In this document: one piece after another, positions 34,790-43,505 of the stretch
How positions within the stretch are numbered: position 1 is the stretch's first letter
How the letters are laid out: each line of letters opens with the position of its first letter
Source of the DNA: Candidatus Thiodiazotropha sp.
Lineage (GTDB): Bacteria; Pseudomonadota; Gammaproteobacteria; Chromatiales; Chromatiaceae
DNA length: 64,000 bases
Assembly: GCA_040506195.1 (NCBI GenBank)
Contig: JBEVXH010000010.1
Coordinates: 16,993-80,992 of the forward strand
Direction: 5' to 3'
Translations under genes and position numbers: made by a program
Notes under the pieces: generated by a model
The model's database searches: none
Seen by the model: only the letters and a program-made list of their open reading frames with translations
What the model was told of the DNA's origin: nothing

Positions 34790-36667
34790 TCATCTCGCTT
34801 TCAGATTTCCGCTGTTATTATCCCACTCCATAACACGGTGATCCCGTGTGGAAATCTTTACGGAGCTGTATCCGTATTTCCATTCTTCGTATCCCAGCGA
34901 AGAATAATCGTTGATATCGTCGGGCGTACCCTGCAAACGAAGAACATCGTCCTGATGGGAGTTGCGTGTAAAGTATTGAGAGGAAGTTGTGTTCGAACCT
35001 GGGGAGAGCCTAACCTTTAAGTTACCTTGATTGGTCCAGCTAATCACTCTGCGGTTATGCGTGGATATCTTAACGGAGCTATAACCATACTTCCATTCCT
35101 CGTAGCCGAGAGCGCTGTAGTCGTTAATATCATCAGGAGTTCCTTGGACTCGCAGCACATCATCTTGATGAGAACCTCGAGTGAAAACTGGCGAGGTTGT
35201 TGTGTTCCTGCCAGGCTGGAGTTGGACTTTCAGGTTGCCTTGATTTGTCCAACTCTGCACTCTCCGATCCTGGCTGGATATTTTTATAGAGCTATACCCG
35301 TATTTCCACTCCTCGTATCCGAGAGCACTATAATCATTGATGTCGTCAGGAGTGCCTTGAATTCTTAGGACATCATCTTGATGTGAACCGCGTGTATAAA
35401 AAGCAGATGATGTGACGTTGTTTCCTGGCAATAAGCGGACCTTCAAGTTGCCTTGATTGTTCCAGTTTAAAACTCGTCTGTTCTGGCTCGATAGCTTTAT
35501 AGAGCTGTAACCATATTTCCATTCCTGGTATCCAAGAGCAGTATAATCGTTGATGTCGTCTGGCCTGCCCTGAACTCGAAGCACCTCATCCTGATGCGAG
35601 CCACGAGTAAAGAAGCTTGCCGACGTTGTAGTGGCCACCGAAGAGGTGCTGGATCGTGCTTGCGCACTTGCCTTTCGCTGAGACGTAGATGGAGAGACGG
35701 TAGTCGGTTTATGTGCAGCCTTCGCTCTTCTGAGCGCACTCAGCAAATCTTGATCAATCCAACCATCCTGAGTAACACCAGCGTCACGCTGAAAAGCTTT
35801 CACGGCGGCAGCAGTCCGGCGACCATAATCTCCATCCACCGGCCCAGGTTTATACCCGAGGTCAGTCAGAAGCTGTTGAGCCTCTCTGGTGTATTGTGCA
35901 CTGGGCTTCTTGGGAGCACTACGGGTCGATGTGCCCGGTGAAACCGATGGATACGACGGTTGATACGAACCACCCAACTGTCTGGCCTCACGAACGGCCT
36001 CCGCGATAATCTGGCTCCGGTAAGGTTTTACATCACGCTCAGCTCGCGACTGGGAACCCTGACGATACCGATAGCTCCCACAGCGGCTATTGTAATCGTC
36101 AACGACTCGGTTGAACTTTCCGACCTCTGCATTGCTATCGATGACATCTCGCATCGCTTCAATGCGAATGCCCTCCCGGATACACCAGCGAATCTGCTGC
36201 ACGGAGAGCATCTTGTTGGTGCCGACTGAAGGCTTTGTATATTTCAATCCGGCGTTTTGAGCCGCGCCTGGGGTTCGGACCGCCTGAGCAGGGCTGCTCT
36301 GCGGGTAGTCGTAGCTCTGCGGTGATGATGGCGGATTGTACGAGGGCTTCTTGTTACTTTGTCCTCCATTGTTAATAAGCCATATCACAAATACGACGCC
36401 GACAATACCAAGAATCCATTTGCCGCCAGAACCGCCAGCGTTATTGCCAGAACTAACCGTTTCAATAGGTGGAGGCGTTCTTTTGGGCTTTCGCTCGGAT
36501 TCGGAGGTAGCTTTTTCCCGTTGAGGCTGCGGCGGTTGCTTAGGCGTTGAGGGCTTGGCCTCCTCTTTTGGTTCCGGGTTTATGGGCTCGTCGACACCAC
36601 TGACCTCGGAGGCCAGGTCTGAAAGCCCGGAGAAGCCTTTTTTATCCTTATCGTTATCGCCAGCCAT
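34790..36667 (-). CDS. Single-TM envelope protein with a peptidoglycan-binding domain and four 71-aa repeats
   Basis: TM WILGIVGVVFVIWLI; PG_binding_1-like LTDLGYKPGPVDGDYGRRTAAAVKAFQ; repeats TRGSHQDxVLRxQGxPDDINDY...EWKYGYSS. Start at MAGDND (36667). Confidence 0.8.
   Translation of the reverse strand: MAGDNDKDKKGFSGLSDLASEVSGVDEPINPEPKEEAKPSTPKQPPQPQREKATSESERKPKRTPPPIETVSSGNNAGGSGGKWILGIVGVVFVIWLINNGGQSNKKPSYNPPSSPQSYDYPQSSPAQAVRTPGAAQNAGLKYTKPSVGTNKMLSVQQIRWCIREGIRIEAMRDVIDSNAEVGKFNRVVDDYNSRCGSYRYRQGSQSRAERDVKPYRSQIIAEAVREARQLGGSYQPSYPSVSPGTSTRSAPKKPSAQYTREAQQLLTDLGYKPGPVDGDYGRRTAAAVKAFQRDAGVTQDGWIDQDLLSALRRAKAAHKPTTVSPSTSQRKASAQARSSTSSVATTTSASFFTRGSHQDEVLRVQGRPDDINDYTALGYQEWKYGYSSIKLSSQNRRVLNWNNQGNLKVRLLPGNNVTSSAFYTRGSHQDDVLRIQGTPDDINDYSALGYEEWKYGYSSIKISSQDRRVQSWTNQGNLKVQLQPGRNTTTSPVFTRGSHQDDVLRVQGTPDDINDYSALGYEEWKYGYSSVKISTHNRRVISWTNQGNLKVRLSPGSNTTSSQYFTRNSHQDDVLRLQGTPDDINDYSSLGYEEWKYGYSSVKISTRDHRVMEWDNNSGNLKAR
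34793..35617 (-). repeat. Four in-frame ~213-bp repeats encoding SmpA/BamE-like modules
   Basis: Four near-identical 71-aa units are visible in the translation; the last is slightly shorter. Confidence 0.9.
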
Positions 36668-36715
36668 GGGCTTCGTCCCCTTCCTTTTCGCACACAAATT
36701 TTATGCCGAGCTCCC

Positions 36716-37468
36716 TCATATAAACGTCACCCCCCAAGCGCCCAGGCCACCAATTCCTATGCACAAAAGAATCAACGGAGCACATCCTGAGTTTTTCTTC
36801 TTGGCGGGCAGCCCCGTTTCCGGGTGGCCATGAGCCTGTGCTAGGTCGCCGATCATCTTCGGCTGGCCGCTTACCCCCAACTGTCGACCCAGAATCTCGA
36901 AAAAGCTCCGTTTTACCGCCTGTGGGCTCATATCGTCCTCATATTCACCGAGGTTCAAGCGTGTCTCGCCGGTAAAGAGGCCGATCATCAGTGGCCCCAT
37001 TTTGCTACCACTTTCGTCTTGAAGGAGATCGCCAGCTTCGCTGTCGAGTATCCTGGCCAGCATGCCCATATCGGCCTGTTCAAGAGCAACAGTCATGATC
37101 GGCTGGTGCGATGGGCCGTGGGGATTCCTGTCGATCCGGTAGAAAACCGACATGGCGTAGTGATTGGTCATCCCCTGATACTCGGCCTTCTTCCGCTGCA
37201 TTTCCATGGTGAGATCAAGAACGGTCTTCGGCTTCTTCTGGAAAGTGAGGAAAAAATCACCCCAAACCCAGGTCTCACCATCATCGACGCTCGACCATGG
37301 GGCCGGAAGGGTTGGCCACTTCGTCAGTTCCAACAGGGCGAACACTGTGTTTTCTGGTGCTGATGGCTGCGGGCTGATCTGGTGAGACTGAGCCTGTGGG
37401 ATAGGTCGGGTATCCGAGGTCAGATCAGAAAGCCCGGTAAATCCGCGTTTGTTATCTTTGTCGTCCAT
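36716..37468 (-). CDS. Hypothetical protein with a C-terminal membrane anchor
   Basis: C-terminal hydrophobic CAPLILLCIGIGGLGAWGVTFI. N-terminus DKDNKRGFTGLSDLTS matches that of the next gene. Confidence 0.75.
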   Translation of the reverse strand: MDDKDNKRGFTGLSDLTSDTRPIPQAQSHQISPQPSAPENTVFALLELTKWPTLPAPWSSVDDGETWVWGDFFLTFQKKPKTVLDLTMEMQRKKAEYQGMTNHYAMSVFYRIDRNPHGPSHQPIMTVALEQADMGMLARILDSEAGDLLQDESGSKMGPLMIGLFTGETRLNLGEYEDDMSPQAVKRSFFEILGRQLGVSGQPKMIGDLAQAHGHPETGLPAKKKNSGCAPLILLCIGIGGLGAWGVTFI

Positions 37469-37474
37469 CGATCC

Positions 37475-39121
37475 TTACCCCCCCAAGAGACTGCTCAACC
37501 GATCTCCACTTCGTTTCCAGAACATACGGATAGCGGCCTCGAGAACGTGGATGTTATCCTCGTCCTGATACGAGAAGGCAGCAGCCAGTTTTTTGTCTTC
37601 CTTTTTTCCGATACAGAAAGCGCCAGCACCATTCCAGATCACTAGCTCCCCCCAGCGGCAAAAGATCCTTTCGTTACTGCCAAAGAGTTTTTTGCGCTCC
37701 AATTCCATTCCTAGATCACTCATAACGGTTGAACCAAAACGGTATTGTTTGCCATCACGCAGACCTTCCAGGTACTCCGTCAGCAAACGAACCCCAACTG
37801 CCTTCCACAAACATTCAATAAAGTTGGAATAGATTGCCTCCTTCTTCAGCTCGATGGAGCCATAATTGGAGCCGTTGCCGAAAACAATGCTGTAAGTTGT
37901 TCCGGTTGGAATGCCGTTGACAGAATGCCGTGTGCCGCCCCAACGGACTCGCGTAATTGAGTCAAGATCCCAGTGGCGTCCTTTCCACTCGATACCTTCT
38001 GGCGAAATTCGCAACTTATCCTTGAAGACAACTCCTACATCAGCCTCGTAAGTTATTTCTCTTCGCCACTCTTCAGCACTGTTCTTTGCATCCTCAATCA
38101 AACGATCGCGTTGTTCTGCAATGCCATCAAGTGCATCCGCATCCTCAGCAGTACGCTCGGCAACTTCAACAACCTCAGCGAAAACTTCCTGCAGCATATT
38201 CGTAAGTTGATGCGAGAAATCGAGCTTGCCGTGTTCGTTGAATATATGAATCGCCAGGTCACGAACCGTGCCAGCAACGCGGTGGCTTGCTTCGTGAGCA
38301 AGCCCTCGACTCATCGTACTGACCTGAATTGGCTGGGCGACGGCATCCCAGTTTTTCACAATCTGGATTAGCTGGTTCACCAAGGGTGCTATGGTCGAAT
38401 CGGACTGTTCTGCATCCACGGCAGCCCACAGTCGCTCGACCAAGGCTTTTATATTGTCTTCCTCCTTATCAAGGAATCCCTGAGCTTCTACTTCATACGA
38501 ATCAACAAGGTCGTCTATCAGAATCGGCCCGTGTTCCTCGCCGTCATTAGTCGCGGACTCAACGGCAAAGGTAACTGCCTTCACAAGTTCCTTTGGCGAA
38601 AGGTTATCGAGGGCCGACTTGATGACCTGGCGATAGTGCCTTCGCCGTTCCTGGATTGCAGATTCGACAGCTGAGAGGTCTGATACTTCTGGAAAACCGG
38701 AAACAATCCGTTCTTCGTTGATAATCACGCTCAACTCTTCGGGGTCGATGTCCTCAAATGCCCATGAAATTTCGAGAATCCATTCTGCTATGTAATCGGC
38801 ATTGTGGTCGGCCAAAAGAGCGAGGCCTGCCGCAAGCAGGTTAGCACGGGCAATTGACGACAGCTTATCGACAGCGAGCAGATCCATTGGCGAGGATTCG
38901 AGGAGCGAAAATACCTCTCCGGCCCTTTTTGGCCCGATGCCTGGCAGCCAGGCGACTTCAGCAGAGAGCCTCTTCCTCGGGTTGGTCAATTCCGAGCGAG
39001 CTTCCATAACCTCACTTGAATCAAGAAGCAGACTGCGTTCATCGGCCAGTTCCATGATCCGTCGACGGTTATCGCGGAGGCTGGCAGTCAAAATATGAAA
39101 AGGATTTTGTTGTAGGTCCAT
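37475..39121 (-). CDS. Protein with a degenerate J-domain-like N-terminus, helical core and C-terminal beta-rich (PH-like) domains
   Basis: NPFHIL...EARSELTNPRKR resembles J-domain helices I and IV, but HPD is missing; lies next to an Hsp70 gene. Confidence 0.55.
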   Translation of the reverse strand: MDLQQNPFHILTASLRDNRRRIMELADERSLLLDSSEVMEARSELTNPRKRLSAEVAWLPGIGPKRAGEVFSLLESSPMDLLAVDKLSSIARANLLAAGLALLADHNADYIAEWILEISWAFEDIDPEELSVIINEERIVSGFPEVSDLSAVESAIQERRRHYRQVIKSALDNLSPKELVKAVTFAVESATNDGEEHGPILIDDLVDSYEVEAQGFLDKEEDNIKALVERLWAAVDAEQSDSTIAPLVNQLIQIVKNWDAVAQPIQVSTMSRGLAHEASHRVAGTVRDLAIHIFNEHGKLDFSHQLTNMLQEVFAEVVEVAERTAEDADALDGIAEQRDRLIEDAKNSAEEWRREITYEADVGVVFKDKLRISPEGIEWKGRHWDLDSITRVRWGGTRHSVNGIPTGTTYSIVFGNGSNYGSIELKKEAIYSNFIECLWKAVGVRLLTEYLEGLRDGKQYRFGSTVMSDLGMELERKKLFGSNERIFCRWGELVIWNGAGAFCIGKKEDKKLAAAFSYQDEDNIHVLEAAIRMFWKRSGDRLSSLLGG

Positions 39122-39133
39122 ACTCCCCTCCAG

Positions 39134-40603
39134 TTACTCGTCGTCCCAGACGAACCCGATGCGTCTGCTTTTCTTTTCTATTTCTTTAGGCAGACTGTTC
39201 AATGCGGCATCGATACTTTCCTGATCAAGCTGCGTCTTCCCGGACTTGGCAGCAAGCCGTGCGGCCTCACGTATAACAAAAGCCGAATCGGAGAGAGCCT
39301 TACCCGTGAGTGCATCGAGAATCTTGTCCAGGTTAAGGTCATCAGATGTCGGCAGCTTGCTCAATAGTGAGTCGACCAGAGACGACACTTCTTCCCTCGA
39401 CGGCATACCGACTTCAATGATGTGGTCGAAACGCCCGCGACGCAGAATGGCCGGATCGATCATTTCGATCATGTTCGTCATGGCGACTAATAGCACCTTG
39501 TTCTTGATGGCTTCGGGAATGCGTCGAAGGAACTCGGCAACCTCTTCAACATGATGCAATCCTGACGAGCTGCCAGATTTCCTATCCGTGAGGAAAGACT
39601 CCATCTCATCAATGACGACCACGGACGGAGCGCCATCAATCGCCGTATCGAAAACCTCAGAGATCTTCTTACTGGTTTCGTGAATATAGGGGCTGCCAAC
39701 GCTGCTGGAATCAATCGAGTAACTGGGCCAATCGATAAATTCGACAAGCCGTTCCACGGCGAAGGTCTTGCCACATCCCGGGGGTCCATGCAGGACGATG
39801 GCTGAAGGGAAATCAATGCCCAGAGCCTGATATTTCTCCGCATTAAAGATGATGTCGATGACGTGTTCGTTAAAAAATTCCTCGAGGTGAGGTCGCCCTG
39901 GAAGTTTGAATATCTTGGATTCGGCCATATCCCCAGGCGATTGTGGCTTTTCAGGTTCGACAGCCTCCTTCGCAGTGGCAGTCTTTGCATCGCTCCGGGA
40001 TTGAGAAGCCGGCTTGCGCTTAGCCAGTAGTCCAGCGTCTGCAGGTACAGCAAACCCGGCAGCGTTTATGATTTCCGCCAGATCACCAGCGGGCATCCAG
40101 CCGGTCAGACTGGTCAACCGCCTGAAGGATTCAGTTGATATGACGACCCCACCGGTAATCCAGGTGCCCAAGACCACCTCATCATCTACGTGGGGTGTCA
40201 GCGTCCAGCCCGGGAGCAATCTGGAGTACTGCTCCACATAAACGGCATCATGGAAAGAGGCACCCTCTGACAATTTCCGGGACTCTTTGAGCGCGAACGC
40301 AAAGGCTATTGCATCGACCTTGCTTTCCGGTGATTTCCCATTCTCAACCGGCGTAAATGCGTACTTCTTATGGCTGCACATACTCCGGAATGATTCACCC
40401 CCGAAAGCGACATCTTCGAACAGGGATTCATCGAGAAAACCGAATTCATTCCACTTCTGCGCCAGCTCTGGACACATAAGCAGGATATTGTTCGAGCCAT
40501 TGGTATCGAATATCTGCCACTCGTCTCCTGAATAGAGGAGCGACCGGACATTCGATCCGTCCGGCAATTCATACCCTTTAGGTAGCCATAAGTCCTTCGC
40601 CAT
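39134..40603 (-). CDS. AAA+ ATPase with an unknown N-terminal domain
   Basis: GPPGCGKT, VVVIDEME, DPAILRRGRFD (second region of homology), C-terminal RRIGF. Confidence 0.9.
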   Translation of the reverse strand: MAKDLWLPKGYELPDGSNVRSLLYSGDEWQIFDTNGSNNILLMCPELAQKWNEFGFLDESLFEDVAFGGESFRSMCSHKKYAFTPVENGKSPESKVDAIAFAFALKESRKLSEGASFHDAVYVEQYSRLLPGWTLTPHVDDEVVLGTWITGGVVISTESFRRLTSLTGWMPAGDLAEIINAAGFAVPADAGLLAKRKPASQSRSDAKTATAKEAVEPEKPQSPGDMAESKIFKLPGRPHLEEFFNEHVIDIIFNAEKYQALGIDFPSAIVLHGPPGCGKTFAVERLVEFIDWPSYSIDSSSVGSPYIHETSKKISEVFDTAIDGAPSVVVIDEMESFLTDRKSGSSSGLHHVEEVAEFLRRIPEAIKNKVLLVAMTNMIEMIDPAILRRGRFDHIIEVGMPSREEVSSLVDSLLSKLPTSDDLNLDKILDALTGKALSDSAFVIREAARLAAKSGKTQLDQESIDAALNSLPKEIEKKSRRIGFVWDDE

Positions 40604-40606
40604 GAA

Positions 40607-43102
40607 TCATCCCCTGATAATGTTGGCCACATCGAACATCTCGTTGTCGGGGCCGCCACCGATTTGAATCATCGAAAGCTGGGCAACCACGGCACGAAGT
40701 TTTTCAATATCATCGGAGCGCATGAGTTGCGTGCCGACCTGGGCGAGTTCCTCGAAACGGTGCTTGTCCGCAAACAGGTGGGGCGAACTGACCATCCATT
40801 TGAACCGCTCGACCACGAACCAGTCTTGCCGCCAAAGGATCTCGAAGTTTTTGCCTTTCAGTTCATCAAGGTGATGCTCGAAATCTTTATCGTTTCGGTC
40901 GATTGAGCGTTGAGCCGTCTTCGCCAGGTTGTCGAAGCCCGACGCTTCGGACGGACGGGCATGCTGCCGGATATGCTCATCGAAGAAGGTCACCACACCG
41001 TCAAGGTCTATCTGACGAATTTCCTTGAGGTGCTCCTTACGTACTTGTGCAAGGAGCCGCCGCGCCTCAAGCACCTTCTCCATAGCCTCCTGGGAGTTCT
41101 CGGTCTCCGCTTCCTCAGGATCGAGGGAGGCAGCGGATTCAAGCTTCTGACGTGCTTGATCCAGTTTCGGGTTGTCCACCACGTCGTTGATCTCGTCGAT
41201 ACGGTTCAGTGTCCGTTCACCCTCCTCGACAACCATGGCGGCGGCCGCGGTGTAATCGAGCTGCCCCTCCTGGCGGGAATAGAAATTCTTCCCGGAATGG
41301 AAGGTCCCGCCGATGCAGGGCACGGATACTTCGATGATGATGTTGCCGGAATCCAGAATCTCGTATTCGCAAGCCAGATCGGCGCCGGCCGGAATTACGC
41401 CGTCGTCAAAATCGGAGCCGGAAATCTTCAAGACGCCGACGGGGCGGTTATCGGTAATAGGGTCTTCGATTTCTCCTTCCCAAAGCGCAAAGTTCAATGA
41501 ACCAGTTGACCCTGCCTTGAGCGATTCGGCCGCCTTGAAGGTCTTACTCCCCCTCTTCGGTAACGAATCACCGGATTTCACCAAATATTCCAGCACCTGT
41601 GGTCCGCCCACCTTATCCAGAACGGCGATAGCGATTGAGTGTGAGGCCGGGATGGCATCCACCGTGGCGGCGGTTCGGGTAATGACGATGCTGTCCTGTT
41701 CCAGGGCGATGGGGCCACCCACGGAATCGAACACGAATACTTTGAAGGTGTTTTCGCCGGTTTTTGTCAGACTAACGTCGAGGGTTGCCCCGTGTTTGAG
41801 CGGCATGCGGCCGGAGGTCCAGCCGGTGTCGACGCTATCGATCTGGAATTCTGAGCCGGACGCAGCCTGGCCCGCCAATTGAACTGCAATCTTGGCCTTA
41901 ACATCCGGAGTGCGGGCGATGTAATTGAAAGACAGTTCCAACCCGCCTCCAGAAGAAATCTGCCCACGGGTGTTCTTGCGAGAACGGTTCTGGGACCCCC
42001 AGTCAATCGACTCCGCAAACAGGCTCGCACCTTCCGCCACGGCTGTCATTGGGTTTACATCGGTGCTTCCCGGAATACCCAGCTCGAATGCAACCTTGTC
42101 TCGCAGCATTTTGTAGTTGGTCGGGCCACCAACGAACACGATGCGCTCCAGGTCATGCGGTGAAAGACCGGCCTTATTGAGTGTCTCTCGTGCAGACTCG
42201 ATTGACTCACCGACGCGTTCGGCAATCAGCTTGTCGTATGTATCACGCTGCAAGGGAATATCAAGATAGACCTCATTGTCGCTGAGATCCCGTACCCGGG
42301 CCTCGGTTTCCGACAGACTGATGACCGAATCCTCGCGTGCCGAAAGTTCAATCTTGGCGCGTTCGGTGGCCCAGGTGGCCAGCCGAATGAGCGACTTGAA
42401 GCTGGGGTTCACGGAAAAGTCTTCCGGGAGGTCGAAGTTTTCCAGCAGCCAGGGGCGTACAACATTATCGACGAGCACGCGGTCGAAATCCCGGCCACCA
42501 CACATGGCAATACCGCCGTGAGCGAGGAGATTAACCCGTCCACCGAGGCTTTCAGCAATAGCGATATCCAGTGTGCCGCCACCCAGGTCGTAAATCAGGA
42601 ACATACCGTCGGTATTGCGGGCGCGCATAACACTCATGACTGCAGCGACCGGTTCCTGCATTAGCGCAACCTTGCCGAGACCGGCCATGCTGGCGGCCTG
42701 CATGGTGGCATCCTTCTGCATCTGGTTAAAAGCAGCAGGAACGGTGATGACGGTTCCGGTATCCGGATCGTTTCGGATTTCCTCAGGCAGGTAACCGAAC
42801 TGAACTTTTAGAATTTCCGCCGAGCACTCTTCCGGAGTCATTGTCATGTTGACCGCCGGAAGATTGATTGGCGTACTGGTACCCATCAACCGCTTGAAAA
42901 GCATCGCAGAGTTGTCCGGGCTTTGCGGCGCCATGTTGTATGCGTTAAAACCAATCTGCTTGTTACCGCGCCTGTCGATATAGATCGCCGAGGGAGTAAC
43001 ATCGTTTTGCTGTGGACTCTTCCACACCCGCGTATCGGAACCGTCATAGGAACAGATTGCGCTGTTTGTTGTACCCAGGTCTATGCCAACGAAATTTTTC
43101 AT
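40607..43102 (-). CDS. Atypical Hsp70-family protein (831 aa)
   Basis: GIDLGTTNS, FKRLMG, TVPAAF, QEPVAA, DLGGGTLD, VGGPT, AVAEGA. An extra domain precedes the SBD-like region. Confidence 0.92.
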   Translation of the reverse strand: MKNFVGIDLGTTNSAICSYDGSDTRVWKSPQQNDVTPSAIYIDRRGNKQIGFNAYNMAPQSPDNSAMLFKRLMGTSTPINLPAVNMTMTPEECSAEILKVQFGYLPEEIRNDPDTGTVITVPAAFNQMQKDATMQAASMAGLGKVALMQEPVAAVMSVMRARNTDGMFLIYDLGGGTLDIAIAESLGGRVNLLAHGGIAMCGGRDFDRVLVDNVVRPWLLENFDLPEDFSVNPSFKSLIRLATWATERAKIELSAREDSVISLSETEARVRDLSDNEVYLDIPLQRDTYDKLIAERVGESIESARETLNKAGLSPHDLERIVFVGGPTNYKMLRDKVAFELGIPGSTDVNPMTAVAEGASLFAESIDWGSQNRSRKNTRGQISSGGGLELSFNYIARTPDVKAKIAVQLAGQAASGSEFQIDSVDTGWTSGRMPLKHGATLDVSLTKTGENTFKVFVFDSVGGPIALEQDSIVITRTAATVDAIPASHSIAIAVLDKVGGPQVLEYLVKSGDSLPKRGSKTFKAAESLKAGSTGSLNFALWEGEIEDPITDNRPVGVLKISGSDFDDGVIPAGADLACEYEILDSGNIIIEVSVPCIGGTFHSGKNFYSRQEGQLDYTAAAAMVVEEGERTLNRIDEINDVVDNPKLDQARQKLESAASLDPEEAETENSQEAMEKVLEARRLLAQVRKEHLKEIRQIDLDGVVTFFDEHIRQHARPSEASGFDNLAKTAQRSIDRNDKDFEHHLDELKGKNFEILWRQDWFVVERFKWMVSSPHLFADKHRFEELAQVGTQLMRSDDIEKLRAVVAQLSMIQIGGGPDNEMFDVANIIRG

Positions 43103-43479
43103 CGTTCCACCTTCCTTAAAGTGACGGTTCCTGTCTTAACCAAACCTTCTTTCCCCATGATGATCGGCTCGAGCATCTGATCGACCATCAAGGCATCCTT
43201 CGTATCGAACTCGTCGATATTGAGGGGCGTGGCGGCCATTCCCGAATCGAAGGCATGACCCTCGACATTTACGATTCTCAAATCCGCTCGTTCCAGGGCC
43301 TCTTCGACCTTTTTGATGAACCAACGGAACTGGCTCTTGTACCGATTCTGTTCCCCGGCATCGAGCTTCAACAGCAGACGATCAAACACCCGACCGAAGC
43401 GCCAGGACTCCACTGCCATACTGATCACCGCATCCCGCATGGCCTCGGGGGTCATTGTGGTTTGTTCAGAGTCCGCCAT
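43099..43479 (-). CDS. GrpE-like protein
   Basis: EEALERADLRIVNVEGHAFDSG...QMLEPIIM...LVKTGTV parallels the GrpE beta-domain. ATGA overlap with the Hsp70 gene; start at 43479 has a GGAG RBS. Confidence 0.6.
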   Translation of the reverse strand: MADSEQTTMTPEAMRDAVISMAVESWRFGRVFDRLLLKLDAGEQNRYKSQFRWFIKKVEEALERADLRIVNVEGHAFDSGMAATPLNIDEFDTKDALMVDQMLEPIIMGKEGLVKTGTVTLRKVER

Positions 43480-43505
43480 ATTTTTCTCCGTGTTCATTAA
43501 AATTC

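What the first reader, a model, noticed from the sequence alone, without database searches (positions are those of the whole stretch)
36600..37468. Two neighbouring, otherwise unrelated membrane proteins begin with the same peptide
Seen: 37468 starts MDDKDNKRGFTGLSDLTSD and 36667 starts MAGDNDKDKKGFSGLSDLASE (consensus K[KR]GF[ST]GLSDL[AT]S). Both continue into Pro-rich disordered linkers and then diverge completely; codons differ while residues are kept. Inference: a cytoplasmic docking or client tag recognised by the module's Hsp70 SBD, J-like protein or AAA ATPase, coupling both membrane proteins to the chaperone core.
Basis: partly seen in the sequence, partly recalled or inferred. Interest (0 to 1): 0.65.

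Follow-up and report, generated by a model that had tools for sequence, protein, structure and literature searches.

The report
Shared handle peptide on Hsp70-AAA partners
Two neighbouring membrane proteins begin with the same 13-residue peptide, which is the conserved cytoplasmic 'handle' carried by the variable, mostly envelope-spanning partner proteins of an undescribed mobile Hsp70/AAA+ gene cassette found in defence islands.

Summary
Both genes start with [KR]-G-F-[ST]-G-L-S-D-L-[AT]-S-[DE], 8-10 residues after the Met. A profile of the motif hits exactly these two ORFs in the whole 4.5-Mb genome (E~1e-10; next best E=1.8). Synonymous codons vary freely while the residues stay fixed.

The tag is present in every sufficiently complete related locus that has the AAA+ gene, about 80 loci with adaptor identity from 33% to 98%. 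It heads at least 185 protein clusters among 1.84 billion representatives, almost always at residues 1-40. Of the representatives of 150 aa or more, 88% continue with a ~58-residue Pro/Ser-rich linker and one TM helix. The outer domains are mostly cell-wall binders (PG_binding_1, SH3b).

The two proteins are functionally linked, because other loci fuse them into one tagged protein. In three-gene forms the envelope module is fused directly to the p548-type adaptor. Those forms have no tag and no AAA+.

Best reading: the tag is an in-trans tether that couples envelope proteins to the cytosolic machine. The AAA+ is the most likely reader, because it is the only core part that tracks the tag. The Hsp70 substrate-binding domain is the main rival. 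No direct binding evidence exists. No description was found in the literature.

The parts
37412..37450 (-). Tag copy 1: KRGFTGLSDLTSD, residues 7-19 of the 250-aa protein
   Evidence: tag HMM 41.6 bits, genome-wide E=2.2e-10
36605..36643 (-). Tag copy 2: KKGFSGLSDLASE, residues 9-21 of the 625-aa protein
   Evidence: tag HMM 42.1 bits, genome-wide E=1.6e-10
36716..37468 (-). p250: tag, short Pro/Gln-rich linker, about 185-aa cytoplasmic body (WPTLPAPWSS...GHPETGLP), C-terminal TM anchor (residues ~227-250, nt 36719-36790)
   Evidence: orthologues keep the tag down to ~45% identity
34790..36667 (-). p625: tag, ~55-aa Pro-rich linker, TM (residues ~77-99, nt 36371-36439), periplasmic two-Cys domain, PG_binding_1, four ~71-aa repeats
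   Evidence: (PG_binding_1 E=1.1e-15)
37475..39121 (-). p548 adaptor: conserved N-terminal and helical scaffold (residues 1-338) plus an exchangeable C-terminal domain
   Evidence: 2433 homologues; at least three alternative C-terminal domains; natural fusions to the p250 body or to the p625 envelope module
39134..40603 (-). AAA+ ATPase of the classical Cdc48/VAT-like clade with a ~195-aa N-domain and a disordered linker; most likely reader of the tag
   Evidence: co-occurrence with the tag
40607..43102 (-). Hsp70-like ATPase: NBD, extra beta domain, DnaK-like substrate-binding domain, long helical tail; alternative reader
   Evidence: Foldseek E=1e-8 to DnaK and HscA SBD structures
43099..43497 (-).
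   Evidence: conserved in all forms of the cassette

Best explanation
The shared peptide, [DNK-rich]-K-[KR]-G-F-[SA]-G-L-S-[DSGT]-L-[ATV]-S-[DE]-[VTI], is a system-specific short linear motif. It is displayed in the cytoplasm at the free N-terminus of the accessory proteins of a mobile Hsp70/AAA+ cassette. Most of these proteins span the envelope. The tag acts as an in-trans tether or handle. Through it, and through a flexible spacer of about 55 residues, the soluble machine (Hsp70, p548 adaptor, AAA+) engages proteins whose outer parts bind the cell wall.

The most likely direct reader is the Cdc48-like AAA+ ATPase. It could dock the tag on its N-domain or take the free N-terminus and linker into its pore. 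Hand-over from or to the Hsp70 substrate-binding domain is possible.

Shown here: the motif, its uniqueness, selection at the protein level, its N-terminal position, its occurrence on many unrelated bodies, its absence when the body is fused to the adaptor, and its co-occurrence with the AAA+.
For: (1) Non-random and selected as protein.

(2) Conserved across the family. 78 of 86 loci have at least one tag of 20 bits or more. The 8 exceptions are 5 contigs that end at or just after p548 (one, L038, still shows the start of a tagged ORF at its end), L052 with an 18.9-bit tag, and 2 loci without AAA. The tag persists in plasmid loci whose p548 is only 40% and 33% identical (TGFAGLSSLESNV, MGFNGISSLVSKL).

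(3) Modular. A profile search of 1.84e9 representatives finds 185 clusters at E<=1e-3. G0 lies within the first 16 residues in 136 of 147. 95 of the 108 representatives of 150 aa or more have a TM after the tag, at a median distance of 58 residues (IQR 53-77). The linker is 15% Pro and 13% Ser. Bodies include PG_binding_1 (41 of 149), SH3_3, TPR, Sel1, TonB_C, RodZ_C, FliL, a soluble receiver domain and a 238-aa soluble family.

(4) Rosetta-stone fusions. tag-p250 body-TM-Cys domain-PG binding occurs as one protein (L029, L046, L052, P0030, P0039). The p548 scaffold is fused to the p250 body without a tag (L088). The p548-type scaffold is fused to TM, Cys domain and PG binding without a tag (L091 E=6e-14, L092 E=1e-18).

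(5) Only the AAA+ tracks the tag. The three-gene forms keep Hsp70 and a p548-type protein (L091 and L092 also a recognisable first gene) but have neither AAA nor tag (L091-L093). Poribacteria loci lack both, and one shows remnants of each at the syntenic positions. No locus with enough sequence has one without the other.

(6) The AAA+ is Cdc48/VAT-like with intact Walker A, Walker B and second region of homology, and an aromatic pore-loop residue (and the sequence).

(7) Both tags of a locus change together at positions 6 and 8: SDL[AT]S in the main clade, S[ST]LVS in the 50%-identity clade.
Against: No binding was tested, and complex prediction was not possible with the tools.

The AAA/tag co-occurrence rests on about three independent lineages that lack both. 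It could reflect a shared sub-module without direct contact.

The AAA N-domain model (pLDDT 80) shows no known peptide-docking fold, only weak kinase-fold similarity (E>1e-3, TM ~0.32).

The Hsp70 has a genuine SBD-like domain, and the basic residues before the hydrophobic core fit Hsp70 preferences.

Column-by-column association of tag variants with the core proteins did not discriminate between them.

The defence role of the cassette is inferred only from its neighbours.
Confidence: 0.65

Rival explanations
1. The tag is a dedicated client motif bound in the substrate-binding cleft of the cassette's own Hsp70, in the way HscA binds the LPPVK motif of IscU. The AAA+ would act downstream or on something else.
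For: The modelled C-terminal part of the Hsp70 (pLDDT 75) matches DnaK SBD structures at Foldseek E=1e-8 and the HscA SBD-IscU peptide complex 1u00 at E=8e-7. The tag has basic residues before a hydrophobic core (F, L, L), lies in a disordered N-terminal region, and sits a fixed distance from the membrane.
Against: The same Hsp70 subfamily with its SBD occurs in three-gene forms that have no tag at all, so the SBD does not depend on the tag. Conserved acidic residues at positions 6 and 10 are unfavourable for canonical DnaK binding (established knowledge of DnaK peptide preferences). No HPD J-domain partner was detected.
Confidence: 0.22
2. The tag docks on the conserved scaffold of the p548 adaptor (residues 1-338) and replaces non-covalently the covalent link seen in the fused forms. 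The AAA+ would remodel or reset this complex.
For: Both kinds of tagged body are found fused, without a tag, to the C-terminus of a p548-type scaffold. The scaffold is the most conserved part of p548.
Against: The scaffold is also present in all tag-less forms, so it does not track the tag. The variable C-terminal domain of p548 changes while the tags stay the same. There is no recognisable peptide-binding domain.
Confidence: 0.1
3. The tag is not a docking site. It could be a regulatory or degradation signal read by host factors (for example a phospho-acceptor segment around the invariant Ser, or an N-terminal degron), or a homotypic association motif between the tagged proteins.
For: Ser at +9 was required by the regex used to collect instances, but is still >=90% conserved among the profile-search representatives; Ser at +2 and +5 are highly conserved. 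The AAA N-domain gives weak kinase-fold hits. One tagged body is a receiver domain. Some proteins carry two tags (P0209, P0251).
Against: The tag is confined to this cassette. It is unique in this genome and is lost when the body is fused to the adaptor, which points to a cassette-encoded partner. No protease or kinase motifs are present in the operon. The kinase-fold hits are below significance.
Confidence: 0.08
4. The similarity is only a relic of a partial gene duplication, or a conserved nucleotide element for translation, with no function as a peptide.
For: The two genes are adjacent, and the similar segment lies at the 5' ends.
Against: There is free synonymous variation with residues that are invariant or nearly so across 80 nucleotide versions. 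The motif is conserved on unrelated bodies in loci whose p548 is as little as 33% identical. The flanking linkers have diverged completely.
Confidence: 0.02

Closest known systems
HscA/HscB/IscU (specialised bacterial Hsp70 that recognises the LPPVK motif of its dedicated client)
   Same: A dedicated Hsp70 paralogue with its own cofactors and a short, conserved recognition motif on dedicated partner proteins. The SBD fold of the cassette's Hsp70 matches DnaK and HscA SBDs.
   Different: No HPD J-domain partner was detected. The motif differs in sequence and is N-terminal on many different, mostly membrane proteins. The cassette adds an AAA+ ATPase that co-occurs with the motif. The Hsp70 carries an extra beta domain and a long helical tail. 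Binding in the cleft is untested.
Short linear motifs that dock cofactors on the N-domain of Cdc48/p97 (SHP box, VIM, VBM) and MIT-MIM pairing in Vps4
   Same: A classical-clade AAA+ ATPase (closest solved relatives are VAT, Cdc48 and p97) with a separate N-domain, and a short Gly- and hydrophobic-rich peptide carried by diverse partners. The SHP consensus, as I recall it, FxGxGxxL, also starts F-x-G.
   Different: The N-domain model does not resemble the double-psi barrel of Cdc48 or a MIT domain. The motif register differs (GFSGLSDL). This is a single-ring bacterial protein in a mobile cassette.
Terminal recognition tags of AAA+ unfoldases (ssrA tag with ClpX/SspB; Msp1/ATAD1 and FtsH acting on membrane proteins)
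   Same: A terminal tag followed by a long unstructured initiation region on membrane proteins, one of them tail-anchored, next to an AAA+ with an aromatic pore-loop residue.
   Different: No protease is encoded in the cassette. The tag is genetically encoded at the N-terminus of dedicated partners rather than added to damaged proteins. Extraction or unfolding is pure inference.
Effector-associated domains (EADs) of NTPase-centred conflict systems (Kaur et al. 2020, PMC7159879)
   Same: A shared module that couples variable effector or sensor proteins to a conserved NTPase core in mobile conflict systems.
   Different: EADs are folded domains of about 80-100 residues, present on both core and effector for homotypic pairing. 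This is a 13-residue peptide that is absent from all core proteins. That paper's Hsp70-containing systems are GTPase- and tubulin-centred and differ in gene content.

Membership tests
Dedicated Hsp70 client motif (HscA-IscU type) | Specialised Hsp70 with an intact beta-sandwich substrate-binding domain | tested here: met
   NBD matches DnaK at E=8e-50. The model of residues 362-831 hits DnaK and HscA SBD structures at Foldseek E=1e-8 to 8e-7, probability 1.00.
Dedicated Hsp70 client motif (HscA-IscU type) | Short motif conserved in the dedicated client(s) | tested here: met
   The tag is conserved in about 80 loci and 185 protein clusters.
Dedicated Hsp70 client motif (HscA-IscU type) | J-domain co-chaperone with an HPD loop that delivers the client | tested here: not met
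   No DnaJ hit for p548 at E<=10 in Pfam. hhalign of a p548 N-terminal profile against J domains gives probability 0.5%. No HPD is present in the sequence.
Dedicated Hsp70 client motif (HscA-IscU type) | Motif bound in the SBD cleft in a nucleotide-dependent manner | not testable with these tools
   This needs a complex prediction or biochemistry. Only single natural chains could be folded.
Cdc48/p97 N-domain-binding linear motifs (SHP/VIM/VBM) | AAA+ ATPase of the classical clade | tested here: met
   PF00004 at E=5e-27. The best solved relatives are VAT, Cdc48 and p97 at E about 1e-47 to 1e-43.
Cdc48/p97 N-domain-binding linear motifs (SHP/VIM/VBM) | Double-psi beta-barrel N-domain that binds the motif | tested here: not met
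   The N-domain model (pLDDT 80) gives no Cdc48 N-domain hit. The best matches are protein-kinase folds at E>=1.7e-3 and TM about 0.32.
Cdc48/p97 N-domain-binding linear motifs (SHP/VIM/VBM) | Motif consensus (SHP: FxGxGxxL, recalled from memory) | tested here: not met
   The observed consensus is G-F-[SA]-G-L-S-x-L-x-S. It shares F-x-G only.
AAA+ degradation tags (ssrA type) | Terminal, unstructured tag | tested here: met
   G0 is at median residue 11, followed by a Pro/Ser-rich linker of median 58 residues.
AAA+ degradation tags (ssrA type) | Partner protease chamber | tested here: not met
   No peptidase family appears in any cassette protein. A host protease cannot be excluded.
Effector-associated domains (EAD) of conflict systems | The same module is present on the core NTPase or adaptor and on the effectors | tested here: not met
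   The tag HMM hits only p250 and p625. The core proteins score below zero.
Sec/Tat signal peptide or lipobox | N-terminal hydrophobic h-region with a cleavage site or twin-arginine motif | tested here: not met
   The tag is followed by a polar linker. The first hydrophobic stretch is the TM at about residue 77. Soluble tagged proteins also exist.

The most novel reading that the evidence does not exclude
The tag is the universal handle of a previously undescribed class of mobile envelope-surveillance machines. A Cdc48-like AAA+ and a dedicated Hsp70 hold, pull on or extract cell-wall-anchored membrane sensors through their tagged N-termini. This would convert damage or remodelling of the peptidoglycan, for example during phage entry or lysis, into a cytoplasmic response. 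In the simpler three-gene relatives the same sensor is hard-wired to the adaptor, so the tag plus the AAA+ would be the invention that made sensors exchangeable.
Probability: 0.25. Interest if true: 0.85.

Novelty: new variant of a known kind. Interest (0 to 1): 0.66.

Why it matters
Bacterial Hsp70 derivatives other than DnaK and HscA are described as largely unexplored 'dark matter' (PMC13580251). This cassette is mobile: it is cargo of a Tn7-like element, it sits on plasmids, and its distribution is sporadic. It lies among restriction-modification, Hachiman, Zorya and BREX genes.

A 13-residue handle shared by all its exchangeable partners gives a direct experimental entry point. It can be mutated to uncouple the envelope proteins from the ATPases. 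It can serve as a sequence signature to find all accessory proteins of the system in genomes.

If the AAA+ reads it, this would be a bacterial counterpart of motif-guided Cdc48-type engagement of membrane proteins.

Tried and rejected
(1) Internal tag-like segment in p548 (SGFPEVSDLSAVE, residues 141-153). It looked similar by eye, but the tag HMM scores it below zero, so I dropped it as evidence.

(2) p548 C-terminal domain as receptor. Rejected, because at least three unrelated C-terminal domains occur with unchanged tags.

(3) Column-wise association between tag position 6 (acidic or not) and residues of the 132-aa first-gene protein, Hsp70, AAA and p548. The top scores were similar in all four (0.73-0.86) and are confounded by phylogeny.

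(4) J-domain assignment of p548 and GrpE assignment of the 132-aa protein. No support from Pfam at E<=10, from a PDB profile search or from hhalign.

(5) A word-indexed search with the tag region alone found only 19 candidates. The exhaustive profile search was needed.

(6) Phage collection: no match. Viral contigs: 3 loci only.

(7) Literature searches for the motif and for Hsp70/AAA defence systems found only unrelated Hsp70 uses: CoCoNuT CnuD and GTPase/tubulin systems.

(8) Complex prediction of the tag with each soluble protein was not possible, because only natural single chains can be folded.
Full report
**Observation**

The region holds a co-directional minus-strand operon:
- a 132-aa protein (43099-43497)
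- an 831-aa Hsp70-like protein (40607-43102)
- a 489-aa AAA+ ATPase (39134-40603)
- a 548-aa protein with no family match, here 'p548' (37475-39121)
- a 250-aa protein, 'p250' (36716-37468)
- a 625-aa protein, 'p625' (34790-36667)

The operon is wedged between hsdR and the Hachiman genes hamA and hamB. p250 starts MDDKDNKRGFTGLSDLTSD and p625 starts MAGDNDKDKKGFSGLSDLASE, as reported. Both ATGs have good ribosome-binding sites.

The core pattern occurs exactly twice in the six-frame translation of the whole 4.5-Mb genome. A 22-column profile built from related tags scores the two ORFs at E~1e-10 against 105,619 six-frame segments, and the next best has E=1.8. Between the two copies, 5 of 15 codons differ synonymously. 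Across 80 nucleotide versions from related loci every Gly, Phe, Ser and Leu codon is used while the residues stay fixed. Selection therefore acts on the peptide, not on the DNA or RNA.

**Conservation**

Orthologues of p250 keep the tag down to about 45% identity. p548 has more than 2400 homologues. Many are 85-95% identical across Vibrio, Shewanella, Proteus, Oligella, Geomonas and uncultured lineages, so the cassette is mobile.

I collected 86 related loci from genomes and metagenomes, and further loci from plasmids and viral contigs. Of the 86 loci, 78 contain one to three ORFs that begin with the tag. The exceptions are five contigs that end at or just after p548, one locus with a weaker tag, and two loci that lack the AAA+ gene. 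The tag is still recognisable where p548 is only 40% identical (Polaromonas plasmid: TGFAGLSSLESNV on an SH3-domain protein) and 33% identical (Vibrio rumoiensis plasmid: MGFNGISSLVSKL on a peptidoglycan-binding protein).

The consensus is a D/N/K-rich start, then K-[KR]-G-F-[SA]-G-L-S-[DSGT]-L-[ATV]-S-[DE]-[VTI].

**A modular N-terminal element**

A profile of the tag was searched against 1.84 billion representative proteins. It finds 185 clusters at E<=1e-3, and nearly all matches lie within residues 1-40.
- Among the 108 representatives of at least 150 aa, 95 have a TM helix after the tag.
- The median distance from tag to TM is 58 residues (IQR 53-77).
- The linker is rich in Pro, Ser, Glu, Ala, Thr and Lys.

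The domains beyond the membrane are mostly cell-wall binders or envelope modules: PG_binding_1 in 41 of 149, then SH3_3, TonB_C, RodZ_C, FliL, TPR and Sel1. Soluble tagged proteins also exist, namely a receiver-domain protein and a 238-aa family.

PG-binding domains must be periplasmic, and p250 is anchored only by its C-terminus. The tag is therefore cytoplasmic in both window proteins (inference from topology).

**The two proteins are linked**

In L029, L046 and L052, and in proteins P0030 and P0039, the p250 body, its TM, and the Cys domain and PG-binding domain of p625 form one polypeptide with a single tag. In L088 the p250 body is fused, without a tag, to the C-terminus of a p548-type scaffold.

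In three-gene relatives of the cassette (p548-type protein, small protein, Hsp70) the p548-type protein itself continues into a TM, the p625-type Cys domain and, in L092, PG-binding domains. The examples are Sinorhizobium L091 (E=6e-14) and Aminobacter L092 (E=1e-18). These fused proteins also have no tag.

So the envelope module works together with the adaptor. The tag appears exactly where the module is a separate protein. This is the main support for a tether function.

**Which part reads the tag**

- *p548 C-terminal domain.* It is exchangeable.
- *First gene, Hsp70 and p548-type protein.* The Hsp70 and a p548-type protein are present in every tag-less three-gene form, and the small first gene is recognisable in L091 and L092, so none of them tracks the tag.
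- *AAA+.* It is absent from the three-gene forms L091-L093. It is also absent from the two Poribacteria loci. One of these, L004, shows short remnants of the AAA+ N-terminus and of a tagged gene at the syntenic places. No locus with enough sequence has the tag without the AAA+, or the reverse. The AAA domain is closest to VAT, Cdc48 and p97. It has intact Walker A, Walker B and second-region-of-homology motifs and a Tyr in the pore-loop position (read from the sequence). Its N-domain folds confidently (pLDDT 80) but matches no known docking fold. Only sub-threshold kinase-fold hits appear.
- *Co-variation.* Within a locus the tags change together at positions 6 and 8, as expected for a common receptor. 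An attempt to map co-variation to one core protein was uninformative.

I therefore favour the AAA+ at roughly 45% of the total. The Hsp70 SBD follows at about 22%, the p548 scaffold at about 10%, and other roles take the remainder.

**Comparison with known systems**

The closest functional precedents are:
- HscA recognising LPPVK of IscU
- linear motifs that dock on Cdc48 or Vps4 N-domains
- terminal tags of AAA+ unfoldases

None fits as a family. No J domain is detected, there is no Cdc48-type N-domain, there is no protease, and the motif differs in sequence. Effector-associated domains of conflict systems (PMC7159879) are folded domains shared with the core, which this peptide is not. The Hsp70-like modules of CoCoNuT systems belong to a different architecture.

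Searches for the motif string and for Hsp70/AAA defence systems found no description. A 2026 review calls bacterial DnaK derivatives largely unexplored.

Earlier AI notes of this scan report the same tag in two other genomes. I treat them as leads. My analysis reproduces their main point independently.

**Distribution**

Only 2 of 400 other genomes of the same class carry this Hsp70 subtype, and a genome of the same genus lacks it. One copy is cargo of a Tn7-like element on a Shewanella plasmid. Another lies between Zorya and BREX genes on a Polaromonas plasmid. A defence role is plausible but untested.

**Verdict**

The docking-tag reading is well supported in general. The reader of the tag and the consequence of engagement remain inferences.

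Noticed in passing
window 37475-38107 (p548 residues 339-548); L062 4933-6582, L060 8001-9947, L088 3-1334: p548 has a conserved N-terminal scaffold (residues 1-338) and an exchangeable C-terminal domain. Variants seen are the beta-rich window type, a type with C-terminal hydrophobic segments, a type with a duplicated helical unit plus another beta-rich domain, and a direct fusion to the p250 body. This is the pattern of a sensor or effector slot.
   Followed up: partly
L091 8980-10890; L092 5014-7539: Three-gene relatives of the cassette (p548-type protein, small protein, Hsp70; no AAA+) on Sinorhizobium and Aminobacter plasmids. In both, the p548-type protein is fused to a TM and the p625-type Cys domain; L092 also carries PG-binding domains.
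   Followed up: yes
window 40019-40603 (AAA+ residues 1-195): The confidently modelled N-domain of the AAA+ gives only weak matches to protein-kinase folds (PknI, PknB, TTBK1; E 2e-3 to 5e-2, TM about 0.3). No kinase catalytic motifs are visible. It could be a pseudokinase-like domain or a new fold.
   Followed up: partly
window 38663-38701 (p548 residues 141-153): The conserved internal segment SGFPEVSDLSAVE (G142, F143, E145 and D148 invariant in alignment A1) resembles the tag by eye (GF..[LV]SDL), but the tag HMM does not support it.
   Followed up: yes
L094 1-7100 and 7553-19179: On a Shewanella xiamenensis plasmid the cassette lies directly after tnsA, tnsB-like, tnsC-like, tnsD and tnsE genes. 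It appears to be cargo of a Tn7-like transposon. This 50%-identity clade carries five or six extra small genes after p548, including a second tagged 349-aa protein and an RDD-family protein.
   Followed up: no
L004 7778-7840 and 11677-11763; L005 11631-11783; L023 9648-9845; L070 9979-10122: Decayed remnants of tagged genes (for example IDNKDNEHGFSVLA, MNDKDNKRGFSGRVL) and, in L004, of the AAA+ N-terminus. This shows turnover of the accessory genes.
   Followed up: partly
proteins P0209 and P0251: Some proteins carry two tags. P0209 has two in tandem at the N-terminus. P0251 has one at the N-terminus and a second before the TM helix.
   Followed up: no
representative tagged proteins: The spacer between the tag and the TM helix has a narrow length distribution (median 58, lower quartile 53).
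   Followed up: no
L009 10464-11165, L011 3069-3782, L015 7423-8136, L024 7325-8038: Some loci hold a third tagged ORF of about 235 aa (KKGFSRLSDLTS[DE]VEP) between the p250 and p625 homologues. It has no family assignment apart from a sub-threshold Kelch hit.
   Followed up: partly
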